Below, piece by piece: positions 1 through 58,176 of a stretch of DNA of 64,000 nucleotides; position 1 is the stretch's first letter; the number at the start of each line of letters is the position of its first letter. Source of the stretch: Janthinobacterium sp. (lineage in GTDB: Bacteria; Pseudomonadota; Gammaproteobacteria; Burkholderiales; Burkholderiaceae_D); contig NZ_RFSK01000030.1 of assembly GCF_009923995.1 (NCBI RefSeq), positions 1,358-65,357 of the forward strand. Reading direction: 5' to 3'. The position numbers and the translations under genes are program-made. The notes beneath the pieces are model-generated. The model was not told where the DNA came from. It ran no database searches and saw nothing but the letters and a program-made list of their open reading frames with translations.

Positions 1-445
1 AACTGGGGAACGGCCCGAAATACTGGTTTTTCTTGTCCACCGCGCCCCGGTAATACACCATGCGCGGCGCATCGCCGCTGGTGATTTTCAGATACGGGTA
101 CGACTTGTCGTCGCGGAACAGGATGTTGTAGCGGGGCTGCAGGGCCTTGATCAGGTTGTTTTCCAGGATCAGCGCTTCCGCCTCGCTGTGCGTGACGGTC
201 GTTTCCAGGCGCGCGATGCGCTCGACCATCATGGCGATGCGGGGACTGGCCAGGTTCTTCTGGAAATAGCTGGAGACGCGCTTTTTCAGGTCGCGCGCCT
301 TGCCGACGTACAACACCTTGTCGGCCGCATCGAAATAGCGGTACACGCCGGGCAGGTTCGGCAGCTTGGCGACGGTGGCCAGCACTTGCGCGCGCGGGTC
401 GGGCGGCGTTTCCGCCAAGGAAGATTCTGGGCTTGCTTCGGTCAT
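1..445 (-). CDS. uvrC: Excinuclease ABC subunit C, 5' part (runs off the window edge)
   Basis: Manual translation from ATG at 445: MTEASPES...[12 protein letters not shown]...[39 protein letters not shown], the UvrC GIY-YIG N-terminal domain. Confidence 0.95.
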
Positions 446-460
446 TGCTGGCTCTTAAAT

Positions 461-524
461 GGGGTCAGACCCGCCGGGGGAATACGTCCCAATGGGACGC
501 ATTCCGATCGAAAAGACTGACCCC
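461..524 (+). repeat. 64-bp inverted-repeat element (REP/MITE-like), copy 1
   Basis: GGGGTCAGACCC...GACTGACCCC ends with inner hairpin GGAAT-A-CGTCCC-AAT-GGGACG-C-ATTCC. Same length and ends as copies at 18820 and 27680. Confidence 0.85.
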
Positions 525-536
525 GGCATCTCATTG

Positions 537-932
537 CTACTCCGCTTGTTCCACGATCACAAACGCCACGGCATACTCTTCTTCATCGCTGACGGTCACT
601 TGCGCGCTCAGGCGGTGCTGCTCCATGAACTCCGCCAGCACGCCGCTGCAGACGATCATCGGCTTGCCGCTGGGATGGTTCAGCATCTGCGCGGCGGGCC
701 ACGTCATCGGCATGCGCAGGCCCAGGCCGATGGCCTTGGAAAACGCCTCCTTGGCGGCGAAACGGGTGGCGAGGAAGCGCACGCCGCGCACGGCATGCTT
801 GGCGCTGCGGGCGCGGAATTTTTCCAGCTCCTGCGGCCCCAGTATCTTTTGCGCAAAACGCTCGCCGTGGCGCGCCAGCGCCGCCTCGATGCGGGGAATC
901 TTGCAGATGTCGGTACCGATGCCGTAGATCAT
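537..932 (-). CDS. acpS: Holo-[acyl-carrier-protein] synthase
   Basis: MIYGIGTDI...[13 protein letters not shown]...[12 protein letters not shown] motifs; directly downstream of pdxJ. Confidence 0.95.
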
Positions 933-17328: not shown

Positions 17329-17425
17329 AAACCTACTGCGCGCCCCACTATCGCCTCGGCGTTGCTCAGCGTACTTCCGTACGCTTGCGCTACTCAAGAC
17401 GATATTGGACCGCTCGCTACGGTTT
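17329..17425 (+). repeat. ~100-bp structured intergenic repeat, copy A
   Basis: AAACCTACTGCGCG...GCTCAGCGTAC-TTCC-GTACGC...CCGCTCGCTACGGTTT; homologous to 19726-19829 and 58078-58176. Confidence 0.85.
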
Positions 17426-18819: not shown

Positions 18820-18883
18820 GGGGTCAGACCCGACGGAGGAGCAGGCTCAATGGAGCACGCTCCGATCCCGAAGGTCTGACCCC
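18820..18883 (+). repeat. 64-bp inverted-repeat element, copy 2
   Basis: GGGGTCAGACCC...GGTCTGACCCC with inner hairpin GGAGC-AG-GCTC-AATG-GAGC-AC-GCTCC. Confidence 0.85.
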
Positions 18884-19725: not shown

Positions 19726-19829
19726 ACACCGTAGCGGGCGCAAGGGCGAGGTGGCCAGGAAGCGCAACCGTACTCCAGTACTGGTACGGTGAGCATCGCA
19801 GCCCGCCTGTCCCGACGCGCAGCAGGTTA
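19726..19829 (-). repeat. ~100-bp structured intergenic repeat, copy C (reverse orientation)
   Basis: Reverse complement reads TAACCTGCTGCGCGTCGG...GCTCACCGTAC-CAGTACTGGA-GTACGG...CGCCCGCTACGGTGT, close to copy B. Confidence 0.85.
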
Positions 19830-27679: not shown

Positions 27680-27743
27680 GGGGTCAGACCCTCGCGGCCG
27701 CCAACGCTGAGCTCTGCGTTAGCGTCCTTGGGGGTCTGACCCC
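27680..27743 (-). repeat. 64-bp inverted-repeat element, copy 3
   Basis: Minus strand GGGGTCAGACCC-N7-CGCTAACGC-AGAGCTCA-GCGTTGGCG-N7-GGGTCTGACCCC; lies between convergent genes. Confidence 0.85.
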
Positions 27744-27764
27744 AGCAGTTGCCGTTGGGTCAAA

Positions 27765-43688: not shown

Positions 43689-43874
43689 GTATTCTCAACG
43701 GTAAGATTCAGTAAGCATACCTTACACCGAATTCCTCTTTCCGCCATTAAAAATAGCTTAGGGAAAACTGCTTTTCCCAGGCAACTTTGCCGAATAACAA
43801 ACGCATCCCTGCCCTGCCGGTTTTTTTCATCTGTGCTAAAGTATTGCCGCCGGTCATGTGACCGGCACAACAAT

Positions 43875-44021
43875 ACGTCTTCGGGGCGGGGTGCGATTCC
43901 CCACCGGCGGTAAGACCGGCAACGGTCAAGCCCGCGAGCGCTTGCCAGGCACCGCCTGGTGAGGTCAGCAGATCTGGTGTGACTCCAGAGCCGACGGTAT
44001 AGTCCGGATGAAAGAAGATGT
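43875..44021 (+). ncRNA. FMN riboswitch (RFN element)
   Basis: CGTCTTCGGGGCGGGGTGCGATTCCCCACCGGCGGTA...AGCCCGCGAGCG...GTCAGCAGATCTGGTG...AGAGCCGACGGTATAGTCCGGATGAAAGAAGATG upstream of ribB. Confidence 0.96.
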
Positions 44022-44117
44022 GCAGTAGTGTGATGTCCCATCGCCACGGCGATGCGGTCAGTTGCGTCTATTCGCTTGCCCTGTTGCGTTTTTCGCTGAT
44101 GCGAGGAGCGTTCCACC

Positions 44118-58077: not shown

Positions 58078-58176
58078 AAACCTGCTGCGCGTCGGCACAG
58101 GCGGCCTGCGATGCTCACTGTACTATTCGTACAGTTCCGCTTCTCGGCCACCTCGTCCTTCCGCTCGCTACGGTTT
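58078..58176 (+). repeat. ~100-bp structured intergenic repeat, copy B
   Basis: AAACCTGCTGCGCGTC...GCTCACTGTAC-TATTC-GTACAG...CCGCTCGCTACGGTTT. Confidence 0.85.

What the first reader, a model, noticed from the sequence alone, without database searches (positions are those of the whole stretch)
461..524. Three intergenic elements of exactly 64 bp with fixed ends and a re-written inner hairpin
Seen in sequence: copies at 461-524, 18820-18883 and 27680-27743 (minus) are each 64 bp. All follow GGGGTCAGACCC / 6-7 nt linker / 26-27 nt hairpin starting at offset 19-20 / linker / (G)GTCTGACCCC, with degenerate ends in copy 1. The hairpin sequences differ (GGAAT..CGTCCC/GGGACG..ATTCC; GGAGC..GCTC/GAGC..GCTCC; CGCTAACGC/GCGTTGGCG) but each still pairs. 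In consensus orientation every copy is preceded by T and followed by GG, I see no target-site duplication, and each lies just past a gene 3' end. Inference: constant length and structure with free inner sequence suggests a structure-read non-autonomous element (REP/REPIN-like, possibly mobilised by a RAYT/HUH tyrosine transposase encoded elsewhere), or a protein-bound or RNA-level module. No transposase is in this window.
Basis: partly seen in the sequence, partly recalled or inferred. Interest (0 to 1): 0.66.

Follow-up and report, generated by a model that had tools for sequence, protein, structure and literature searches.

The report
Hairpin repeats with swappable inner modules
The three 64-bp elements are larger versions of a 27-base DNA hairpin that is scattered about 130 times through this Janthinobacterium genome. 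The hairpin family goes with a single-copy transposase-like gene, and what is unusual is that extra small hairpins sit inside the basic hairpin and are exchanged at fixed genomic sites between species.

Summary
However, the three copies belong to two different sub-families, and both are derivatives of a much commoner 27-nt hairpin, GGGGTC(A/G)(G/T)ACCC-NNN-GGGT..GACCCC.

- **Census in this genome:** about 84 plain hairpins, 10 hairpins carrying a 14-nt module, about 13 class A (64 nt; window copy 3) and about 19 class B (63-67 nt, mode 66; window copies 1 and 2).
- **Distribution:** the family is confined to Janthinobacterium among 17 sampled genera of the order. It lies a median 22 nt past stop codons and avoids divergent promoter regions.
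- **Linked gene:** its abundance tracks a single-copy Y1/HUH transposase-like gene of the TIRYT type (TnpAY1 subclass 2.1) between greB and spoT. Two allelic lineages of that gene each abut their own hairpin subtype.
- **Class B structure:** a three-way junction with strong compensatory covariation and no G.U excess, which points to DNA-level structure rather than RNA.
- **Class A structure:** the inner "hairpin" has no covariation support.
- **Orthologous sites:** the same site holds an empty spacer, a 27-mer, class A, or class B in either orientation, and sister species differ.

The verdict is a new variant of a known kind, TIRYT terminal-repeat families. How the modules get inserted is inferred, not shown.

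The parts
461..524 (+). Class B composite element, 64-nt short variant. Outer stem 461-468 with 517-524. Remnant of the basic hairpin top, ACCC-GCC-GGG, at 469-478. Inner 12-bp hairpin at 479-505. Short third hairpin region at 506-516.
   Evidence: It lies 12 nt after the acpS stop (537-539, minus strand) and 16 nt before the uvrC start (445, minus strand). At the orthologous site G004 has a plain 27-mer with the same flank and the same GCC loop, and five genomes have no hairpin there.
18820..18883 (+). Class B composite element, 64-nt variant that keeps the right arm GGTCTGACCCC. Inner hairpin 18838-18863.
   Evidence: The orthologous site is an empty 22-28-nt spacer in at least 13 genomes of the genus. 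G023, G002, G011, G006 and G009 carry a class B element there, 63 nt in G023 and 66 nt in the others. The orthologues show a compensatory A-T / G-C change.
27680..27743 (.). Class A composite element, 64 nt and nearly two-fold symmetric. 12-bp outer arms at 27680-27691 and 27732-27743. 40-nt interior with the GCYAACG / CGTTRGC motifs at 27699-27724.
   Evidence: It lies between convergent genes. In other species the orthologous site holds class A, a class A variant, class B forward, class B reverse, plain 27-mers, an unrelated ~100-nt repeat, or nothing.

Best explanation
**What it is.** The three elements are composite members of a Janthinobacterium-specific family of non-autonomous, REP-like DNA hairpins. 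These are dispersed copies of the terminal repeat of a single-copy TIRYT gene, a RAYT-like Y1/HUH nuclease-transposase of TnpAY1 subclass 2.1, which sits between greB and spoT. The basic unit is a 27-nt hairpin with a 12-bp stem whose arm GGGGTCAG.. matches the published TIRYT repeat consensus GGGGWSAS.

**How it most likely works (inferred, not shown).** The enzyme acts in trans on the single-stranded, folded form. It reads the constant outer arms, so the interior only has to stay foldable.

**How the composites are built.**
- Class B is the 27-mer with the central A/T of one arm replaced by a module of about 38-41 nt that makes two extra hairpins. The result is a three-way junction. The module usually brings its own right end, ACTGACCCC.
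- A 14-nt mini-hairpin enters beside the same base, between GGG and TCTGACCCC.
- Class A is the 27-mer with its 3-nt loop replaced by 40 nt.

**Where the modules enter (inferred).** The shared entry point at arm position 9 is probably the enzyme's nick site. Modules would be inserted or exchanged there by cleavage and re-joining, on either strand.

**Shown:** family structure, distribution, linkage to the gene lineages, DNA-level covariation, and site turnover. **Inferred:** catalysis by the TIRYT protein, the nick site, and the insertion chemistry.
For: **Family and census.** Searches give 127 elements in the genome.

**Distribution.** 21 of 24 other genomes of the genus have the exact 27-mer, and none of 16 other genera of the order do.

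**Linked gene.** A PF01797 gene with NHVH and YIELNP motifs. These are the subclass 2.1 signatures in PMC6006769. The GGGGWSAS consensus of TIRYT repeats comes from PMC3733652.

**Homologues elsewhere.** Homologues at 39-47% identity in Halomonas getboli and two other taxa are bracketed on both sides by GGGGTCAGACCCC / GGGGTCTGACCCC.

**Lineage and subtype.**
- Lineage 1 always has a GG-type hairpin 9-20 nt after the stop; in one genome (G022) that hairpin is a class B composite.
- Lineage 2 always has an AG-type hairpin 23-36 nt after the stop.
- Both lineages sit at the same greB-spoT locus.

**Copy numbers.**
- Median GG/GT-type counts are 24 (lineage 1), 3.5 (lineage 2) and 1 (no gene).
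- Median AG-type counts are 14, 29 and 0.
- Any gene versus none gives p = 3e-6.

**Class B structure.** One search shows the covariation. G.T 33 versus C.A 31 shows symmetry between the strands.

**Modules.** They never occur outside hairpin arms.

**Same-site series with the loop retained.**
- Copy 1 site: the 27-mer in G004 and class B in G000 both have loop GCC.
- Copy 3 site: the G019 27-mer, G017 class B forward and G022 class B reverse share loop GTC and the right-flank haplotype; G017 and G022 also share the left flank, which differs somewhat in G019.

**Chimeric arms.** 6 of 9 class B elements with a G-type left arm have an AG-type right end, against 3 of 37 plain hairpins (p = 6e-4).

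**Genomic context.** 46 convergent, 54 tandem and 4 divergent, against a background of 522/1720/665 (p = 2e-12).
Against: - No TIRYT has been tested biochemically, so enzyme action is inferred from association only.
- The association tests are not corrected for phylogeny.
- G018 has 35 exact hairpins but no lineage 1 or lineage 2 gene. G004 and G043 have many GG-type copies with only lineage 2.
- This genome has only lineage 1, yet all three window copies have AG-type ends, so they may be immobile relics.
- In Janthinobacterium the gene has a hairpin on its 3' side only, not both sides.
- There is no orientation bias relative to the inferred replication direction (class B 8:8, class A 3:8, 14-nt module 8:3). 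A lagging-strand ssDNA mechanism might be expected to leave such a bias, though this test was weak.
- Sister species at the copy 3 site also differ in arms and tails, which fits replacement of the whole element as well as in-situ insertion.
Confidence: 0.78

Rival explanations
1. RNA-level element. The hairpins are kept because, once transcribed at the 3' ends of genes, they stabilise the upstream mRNA, terminate transcription or form a small structured RNA. On this view the conserved structure reflects RNA function.
For: They lie a median 22 nt after stop codons and are depleted between divergent genes. They fold stably. In class A, the inner motif pairs at 86% on one strand if G.T is allowed but only 64% on the other. 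REPs of E. coli are known to protect upstream mRNA (established knowledge).
Against: - Orientation relative to the upstream gene is mixed for class A and class B.
- Class B has equal G.T and C.A counts (33 versus 31) and 93% Watson-Crick pairs, unlike structured RNAs.
- There is no T-run terminator signature at any of the three copies.
- There is no Rfam family. Only sub-threshold generic miRNA hairpin matches appear.
- The class A strand asymmetry does not exceed column-composition shuffles.
Confidence: 0.12
2. Whole-element replacement rather than insertion of modules into a resident hairpin. The composite elements move only as complete units. The different occupants of one site arise by repeated independent landing at a preferred site, or by homologous exchange of the whole intergenic allele between strains.
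For: - At the copy 3 site, sister species differ in arm subtype, loop and the ~20-nt tails, not only in the interior (G043 versus G017).
- An unrelated ~100-nt repeat family occupies the same site in three genomes, which marks it as a general landing spot.
- At the copy 2 site, a complete class B element with extra flanking bases appears where at least 13 genomes have a short empty spacer.
- Near-identical class B interiors occur at different loci.
Against: - The resident loop is kept at two sites: GCC at the copy 1 site, and GTC in the 27-mer, class B forward and class B reverse on largely the same flank haplotype at the copy 3 site.
- The 14-nt module occurs in all three arm subtypes, mostly with a matching right arm, and also inside a class A element.
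- Class B combines GG-type left arms and TGA loops with an AG-type right end. That requires a join inside the hairpin.
Confidence: 0.3
3. Host protein-binding sites on duplex DNA, in the manner of E. coli BIMEs that bind IHF, gyrase or Pol I. The palindromic arm GGGGTCAGACCC and the class A direct repeat GCYAACG-N11-GCYAACG would be operator-like sites kept by selection on the host.
For: Each arm is itself nearly palindromic. The class A interior is conserved in sequence rather than by covariation, and it contains a direct repeat 18 nt apart. Subclass 2.1 proteins carry a C-terminal HTH-like domain according to PMC6006769.
Against: - Presence/absence polymorphism and interior swapping between sister species argue against conserved site-specific function.
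- The family is nearly absent from many species of the genus.
- Strong compensatory change in class B shows that intrastrand pairing matters, not the duplex sequence.
Confidence: 0.08

Closest known systems
TIRYT / TIRtron repeat families (Di Nocera, De Gregorio and Rocco 2013, PMC3733652); equals TnpAY1 subclass 2.1 (Quentin et al. 2018, PMC6006769); equals RAYT Group 1 (Bertels et al. 2017, PMC5581495)
   Same: - A Y1/HUH protein with NHVH and YIELNP motifs, about 213-240 aa and effectively single copy.
- A repeat core GGGGTCAG that fits the published GGGGWSAS.
- Self-complementary repeats dispersed as monomers, dimers and clusters.
- Homologues in other phyla bracketed by the same 13-mer.
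   Different: - In Janthinobacterium the gene carries the repeat on its 3' side only.
- Copy numbers exceed 100 per genome. Quentin et al. report no REPs for subclass 2.1, and Bertels et al. report only about 12 occurrences of flanking 16-mers for Group 1.
- Two allelic gene lineages at one fixed locus each have their own hairpin subtype.
- Hairpin-in-hairpin modules with site-level exchange are not described in these papers.
REP / REPIN-RAYT systems (E. coli, Pseudomonas, Stenotrophomonas; Nunvar 2010, Bertels and Rainey 2011, Ton-Hoang 2012)
   Same: Short extragenic palindromes at gene 3' ends. A vertically inherited single-copy Y1 gene next to its cognate repeat. Gene and repeat co-vary. 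Stems change in a compensatory way.
   Different: No GT[AG]G foot. A different enzyme subclass. The basic unit is a perfect 27-nt hairpin. It is not two imperfect REPs separated by a spacer.
BIMEs of E. coli and NIMEs of Neisseria (mosaic intergenic elements)
   Same: Mosaic build. Constant inverted end motifs are combined with a small set of alternative internal motifs of fixed length, and orthologous sites differ between strains.
   Different: The sequences are unrelated. BIME linkers lie between separate palindromic units, whereas here the module sits inside one hairpin arm or loop. No evidence was obtained here for IHF or gyrase binding.
Insertion sequences that target REP hairpins (IS1397, ISKpn1, ISPpu9/10, IS621/IS110 family)
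   Same: A REP hairpin serves as a specific landing site for another mobile sequence.
   Different: Those are 1-2 kb autonomous elements with their own transposase. Here the inserts are 14-41 nt, non-coding, and never found outside the hairpin.

Membership tests
TIRYT / TIRtron (TnpAY1 subclass 2.1) | Y1/HUH protein with HuH motif NHVH and Y motif YIELNP, about 238 aa | tested here: met
   The C79 ORF has NHVHLL and RYIELNP and is 213-215 aa. PF01797 matches at E = 3e-12. Motif table in PMC6006769. NCBIfam REP_Tyr_transpos scores 65.6 bits, below its cut-off of 80.
TIRYT / TIRtron (TnpAY1 subclass 2.1) | Terminal repeat containing GGGGWSAS | tested here: met
   The AG-type arm GGGGTCAG fits exactly. 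The GG-type arm GGGGTCGG departs at one position.
TIRYT / TIRtron (TnpAY1 subclass 2.1) | Gene bracketed by inverted repeats on both sides | tested here: not met
   In 16 Janthinobacterium loci the hairpin lies on the 3' side only, and no convincing upstream copy was found. The feature is met in Halomonas getboli L043, L096 and L121.
TIRYT / TIRtron (TnpAY1 subclass 2.1) | The same repeat is dispersed through the genome and follows the presence of the gene | tested here: met
   Exceptions are G018, G004 and G043.
Classical REP / REPIN-RAYT | 5' GT[AG]G tetranucleotide at the foot of the hairpin | tested here: not met
   The ends are GGGGTC.../...GACCCC with Y and RG outside. No GTAG is present.
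Classical REP / REPIN-RAYT | Cognate RAYT of subclass 2.2 or 2.5 (Bertels Groups 2 and 3) | tested here: not met
   The motifs place the protein in subclass 2.1.
Classical REP / REPIN-RAYT | High-copy extragenic palindromes at gene 3' ends | tested here: met
   127 elements. Median 22 nt from a stop codon. 46 convergent, 54 tandem, 4 divergent.
Intrinsic transcription terminator | G+C-rich hairpin followed directly by a T-run | tested here: not met
   No terminator-like site at any of the three copies.
Structured non-coding RNA (Rfam family) | Match to a curated family, or strand-specific covariation with G.U tolerance | tested here: not met
   Rfam gathering thresholds give only the FMN riboswitch elsewhere in the window. 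The E-value mode gives only sub-threshold miRNA hairpins. Class B has G.T 33 versus C.A 31, and orientation is mixed.
MITE of a DDE transposon | Terminal inverted repeats plus a target-site duplication | tested here: not met
   Filled-versus-empty comparisons show no direct duplication at the ends. Flank divergence limits how precise this is.
BIME-like mosaic element | Binding of IHF, gyrase or Pol I to linker motifs | not testable with these tools
   This needs protein-DNA assays. Only the mosaic architecture could be compared.

The most novel reading that the evidence does not exclude
The hairpin arm is both the recognition site and the cutting site of the TIRYT enzyme. The enzyme's cleavage and re-joining at arm position 9 (GGGGTCAG^A^CCC, or GGG^T^CTGACCCC on the partner arm) would paste very small hairpin cassettes of 14 to about 41 nt into resident hairpins on either strand, and would exchange them between copies. 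That would be a second tier of mobile DNA that lives only inside the first tier. It builds three-way DNA junctions, and it would make a Y1 transposase a cassette-exchange enzyme for its own repeats.
Probability: 0.3. Interest if true: 0.72.

Novelty: new variant of a known kind. Interest (0 to 1): 0.55.

Why it matters
- **The enzyme class is large and untested.** TnpAY1 subclass 2.1 (TIRYT, RAYT Group 1) is the largest RAYT-like group. No member has been tested biochemically, and the two main surveys describe it as having no REPs or only weakly repeated flanking sequence.
- **This genus offers a clean natural experiment.** There is one locus with two allelic enzyme lineages. Each lineage has its own hairpin subtype, and many species have lost both the gene and the hairpins.
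- **The composites give a concrete prediction.** They point to where the enzyme cuts (arm position 9).
- **Interiors can be rebuilt while the ends stay fixed.** This bears on how REP-like families diversify. It also bears on whether such enzymes could be used to place short cassettes at defined hairpins.

Tried and rejected
- **Orientation relative to replication.** Using local GC skew, I found no bias (class B 8:8, class A 3:8, 14-nt module 8:3). The skew assignment is weak on draft contigs; its correlation with gene-strand bias is 0.12.
- **Orientation relative to transcription.** Mixed.
- **Terminator and promoter scans.** Nothing at the three copies.
- **Rfam.** The gathering and E-value modes gave nothing meaningful.
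- **Literature.** No paper on Janthinobacterium REPs, and the motif strings occur only as unrelated primers.
- **Class A inner hairpin.** I first read the 141 C.A against 28 G.T pairs as a strand-specific wobble signal. Shuffles show that pairing on the favoured strand (85.8%) is explained by column composition (85.1 +/- 0.7%), so I dropped it.
- **"Exactly 64 bp" as a meaningful constant.** Rejected. Class B centres on 66 nt. Another genus of the family has elements of 63-64 nt between the inner 11-mers, with unrelated interiors. Length constancy simply reflects homology within each sub-family.
- **A second Y1 paralogue (C94 type).** It is present in all genomes and has no hairpin nearby, so it is not the cognate gene.
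- **Earlier notes of this scan.** Search by sequence found no look-alike.

Full report
**1. Observation**

The three copies are present as described: 461-524 (+), 18820-18883 (+) and 27680-27743, each 64 bp. The 11-mer GGGGTCAGACC, allowing one mismatch, occurs six times in the window against 0.99 expected, and no shuffle reaches six. The window is contig C77:1358-65357 of a 6.18-Mb draft genome with 64.4% G+C. Titles of matching public records name Janthinobacterium.

**2. The wider family**

Pairing the two end motifs across the whole genome gives a multimodal length distribution.

| Class | Copies | Length (nt) |
|---|---|---|
| Plain hairpin GGGGTC(A/G)(G/T)ACCC-NNN-GGGT..GACCCC | 84 | 27 in 77 copies |
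| Plain hairpin plus 14-nt mini-hairpin | 10 | 41 (one of 40) |
| Class A | 13 | 64 in 12 copies |
| Class B | 19 | 64/65/66/67 = 3/1/12/3 |
| Class A plus the 14-nt module | 1 | 78 |

- Window copies 1 and 2 are class B. Copy 3 is class A.
- The plain hairpins fall into subtypes with matched arm centres: AG/CT 33, GG/CC 23 and GT/AC 9.
- Each subtype has its own loops: GNC for AG, and TGA/TCA for GG and GT.
- GG- and GT-type hairpins also carry a ~20-nt tail, RGnnnTTGCnnTTGGGGTT, often on both sides.
- Elements lie a median 22 nt from the nearest stop codon.
- By my own crude GC3 gene calls, 46 lie between convergent genes, 54 between tandem genes and 4 between divergent genes. The background is 522/1720/665 (chi-square 54, p = 2e-12).

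**3. Distribution**

- The exact 27-mer occurs 0-86 times in 24 other genomes of the genus and never in 16 other genera of the order.
- Composite elements occur in 16 of those 24 genomes, plus a single match in one genome of another genus.
- Within the GTDB family, paired GGGTCWGACCC motifs occur in 6 of 64 genera. One other genus has 63-64-nt elements with the same ends and an unrelated AT-rich interior.
- A scan of all species genomes found GGGGTCWGACCCC-ended hairpins in many phyla.

**4. The associated gene**

The genome has two PF01797 genes. One is C79:60878-61516. It has the motifs NHVH and YIELNP and is followed 6 nt after its stop by a GG-type 27-mer. These motifs define TnpAY1 subclass 2.1 in Quentin et al. 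2018 (PMC6006769). That paper equates the subclass with the TIRYTs of Di Nocera et al. 2013 (PMC3733652), whose terminal repeats share GGGGWSAS. GGGGTCAG fits this consensus.

Homologues at 39-47% identity in Halomonas getboli and two other taxa are bracketed on both sides by arrays of GGGGTCAGACCCC / GGGGTCTGACCCC.

Across 31 genomes of the genus:
- The gene occupies one locus, greB-gene-spoT, in two allelic lineages.
- Lineage 1 (74-100% identity; 8 genomes) always has a GG-type hairpin 9-20 nt after the stop; in G022 that hairpin is a class B composite.
- Lineage 2 (53-62% identity; 8 genomes, three with stop codons inside the gene) always has an AG-type hairpin 23-36 nt after the stop.
- A third paralogue (34-40% identity) is present in every genome and has no hairpin nearby.

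Exact hairpin counts follow the lineages.

| Gene state | Median GG/GT-type | Median AG-type |
|---|---|---|
| Lineage 1 | 24 | 14 |
| Lineage 2 | 3.5 | 29 |
| Neither | 1 | 0 |

- Any gene versus none gives p = 3e-6.
- GG/GT-type, lineage 1 versus lineage 2, gives p = 0.003.
- These tests are not corrected for phylogeny.
- Exceptions are G018 (25 and 10 copies, no gene) and G004 and G043 (many GG-type copies with lineage 2 only).
- This genome has lineage 1 only. The AG-ended window copies therefore have no cognate gene here. The close relative G002 keeps a lineage 2 pseudogene.

**5. Structure of the composites**

*Class B.* I aligned 43 distinct sequences from across the genus. They fit an 8-bp outer stem enclosing three hairpins.
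- 95.6% of cells are paired.
- 14 pairs change on both sides.
- There are 98 compensatory cells against 23.9 +/- 4.4 in shuffles (0 of 500 reach the observed value).
- Slid controls give 34-56% pairing.
- G.T and C.A counts are equal, 33 and 31. Complementarity is therefore maintained symmetrically, as expected for DNA rather than RNA.

*Class A.* I aligned 57 distinct sequences with no gaps.
- The interior is conserved, with a motif GCYAACG repeated 18 nt apart.
- Its putative hairpin pairs at 64% on one strand and at 86% on the other if G.T is allowed.
- Neither value exceeds shuffles, so I do not claim a selected inner hairpin for class A.

*Modules.* They never occur outside hairpin arms.

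**6. Anatomy of the insertions**

- Class B keeps GGGGTC.GACCC-loop-GGG. It replaces the next base (T; A on the partner arm) with about 38-41 nt and ends in CTGACCCC.
- The 14-nt module lies between GGG and TCTGACCCC. It occurs in all three arm subtypes and in one class A element.
- Class A replaces the 3-nt loop with 40 nt.
- Class B often joins a GG-type left arm and TGA loop to an AG-type right end: 6 of 9, against 3 of 37 for plain hairpins (p = 6e-4). The module therefore seems to travel with its own right end.

**7. Orthologous sites**

*Copy 1 site.*
- Class B in G000, G023, G002 and G042.
- A plain 27-mer in G004 with the same left flank and the same GCC loop.
- 27-mers in G006 and G045.
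- No hairpin in five genomes, and only a 12-nt spacer in two more.

*Copy 2 site.*
- At least 13 genomes have an empty 22-28-nt spacer.
- Six genomes have class B.
- G004 has a 27-mer with both tails.
- Orthologous class B copies show a compensatory A-T / G-C difference.

*Copy 3 site.* The same position holds:
- class A (G000, G004, G009);
- a class A variant (G002, G011, G007);
- class B reverse (G006, G022, G018);
- class B forward (G017);
- plain 27-mers of two subtypes;
- an unrelated ~100-nt repeat (G008, G042, G021);
- nothing (G010, G014, G045, G024).

G019 (27-mer), G017 (class B forward) and G022 (class B reverse) share the GTC loop and the right-flank haplotype; G017 and G022 also share the left flank, which differs somewhat in G019. 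This fits insertion into a resident hairpin on either strand.

A maximum-likelihood tree of 1.8 kb of flanks shows that well-supported sister pairs differ in state:
- G006 and G011, support 100/98;
- G043 and G017, support 98/96;
- G045 and G012, support 100/99.

All 16 taxa of the inner clade are occupied, with at least six different states. Some sister pairs also differ in arms and tails, so replacement of the whole element happens too.

**8. Mechanism**

*Shown:* a hairpin family tied to an enzyme lineage, DNA-level structural constraint in class B, a shared internal entry point for two modules, and rapid turnover at fixed sites.

*Inferred:* the TIRYT protein recognises the constant arms on folded single strands. 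It nicks at arm position 9, and cleavage and re-joining there produces both the spread of the elements and the module insertion or exchange. The C-terminal HTH-like domain reported for subclass 2.1 could read the near-palindromic arm on duplex DNA. This was not tested.

**9. Rivals**

- The RNA-level reading is weakened by mixed orientation and the lack of G.U excess. There is also no U-tract and no Rfam family.
- A host protein-binding role does not fit the presence/absence polymorphism.
- Whole-element replacement remains a live alternative for part of the turnover.

**10. Comparison with what is known, and novelty**

Di Nocera et al. already noted that some TIRYT repeats form moderately abundant, sometimes self-complementary families. 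Quentin et al. found no REPs for subclass 2.1. Bertels et al. found only about 12 occurrences of flanking 16-mers for Group 1. No paper treats Janthinobacterium or these motif strings.

Earlier notes of this scan file similar hairpin repeats in other genomes under TIRYT. They agree with my reading but are not independent evidence.

New here:
- the allelic two-lineage system at one locus;
- the hairpin-in-hairpin modules with a common entry point;
- the three-way junction supported by covariation;
- the exchange of modules at orthologous sites.

I class it as a new variant of a known kind.

Noticed in passing
window 17329-17425 (+), 19726-19829 (-), 58078-58176 (+): A second, unrelated repeat family of about 100 nt (AAACCTRCTGCGCG...CGCTCGCTACGGTTT) gives about 90 BLAST hits in this genome. 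A member of it occupies the orthologous site of copy 3 in G008, G042 and G021, so that convergent-gene spacer is a landing spot for two repeat families.
   Followed up: partly
window 43873-44023 (+): FMN riboswitch (RF00050), 120 bits against a gathering score of 66.
   Followed up: no
genome contig C94:42543-43178 (-), outside the window: A second Y1_Tnp paralogue, 34-40% identical to the hairpin-linked gene, is present in all 31 genomes of the genus and has no hairpin nearby. It looks like a conserved core gene of unknown role.
   Followed up: partly
L043:3056-6622 (Halomonas getboli), L096, L121: TIRYT homologues at 39-47% identity are bracketed on both sides by arrays of GGGGTCAGACCCC / GGGGTCTGACCCC pairs, a textbook TIRtron layout that uses the same 13-mer core.
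   Followed up: partly
G171 and G144 (another genus of the same family), e.g. G171:C1:9159-9222: Dozens of elements of 63-64 nt, measured between the inner GGGTCAGACCC / GGGTCTGACCC 11-mers, carry an unrelated AT-rich interior (GTTTTTTATTCGG...AAAAAAC). Constant ends with a lineage-specific interior therefore recur outside Janthinobacterium.
   Followed up: no
genome-wide, e.g. C14:94637, C71:49405; window copy 3 right flank 27744-27763: GG- and GT-type 27-mers carry a conserved ~20-nt tail, RGnnnTTGCnnTTGGGGTT, often on both sides. The full unit is then an extended palindrome of about 67 nt. The TIRYT stop codon lies inside the left tail of its hairpin.
   Followed up: partly
genome, e.g. C119:22893-22991, C67:119684-119783, C111:122326-122437: Doublets of 27-mers 45-60 nt apart, with a short hairpin in the spacer (TTGGGTT...AACCCAA), resemble REPIN-like dimers.
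   Followed up: no
window 445-537: Copy 1 fills almost the whole 91-nt spacer between the acpS stop and the uvrC start. It ends 16 nt before the uvrC ATG, just upstream of the likely ribosome-binding site. Relatives manage with spacers of 12-35 nt.
   Followed up: no
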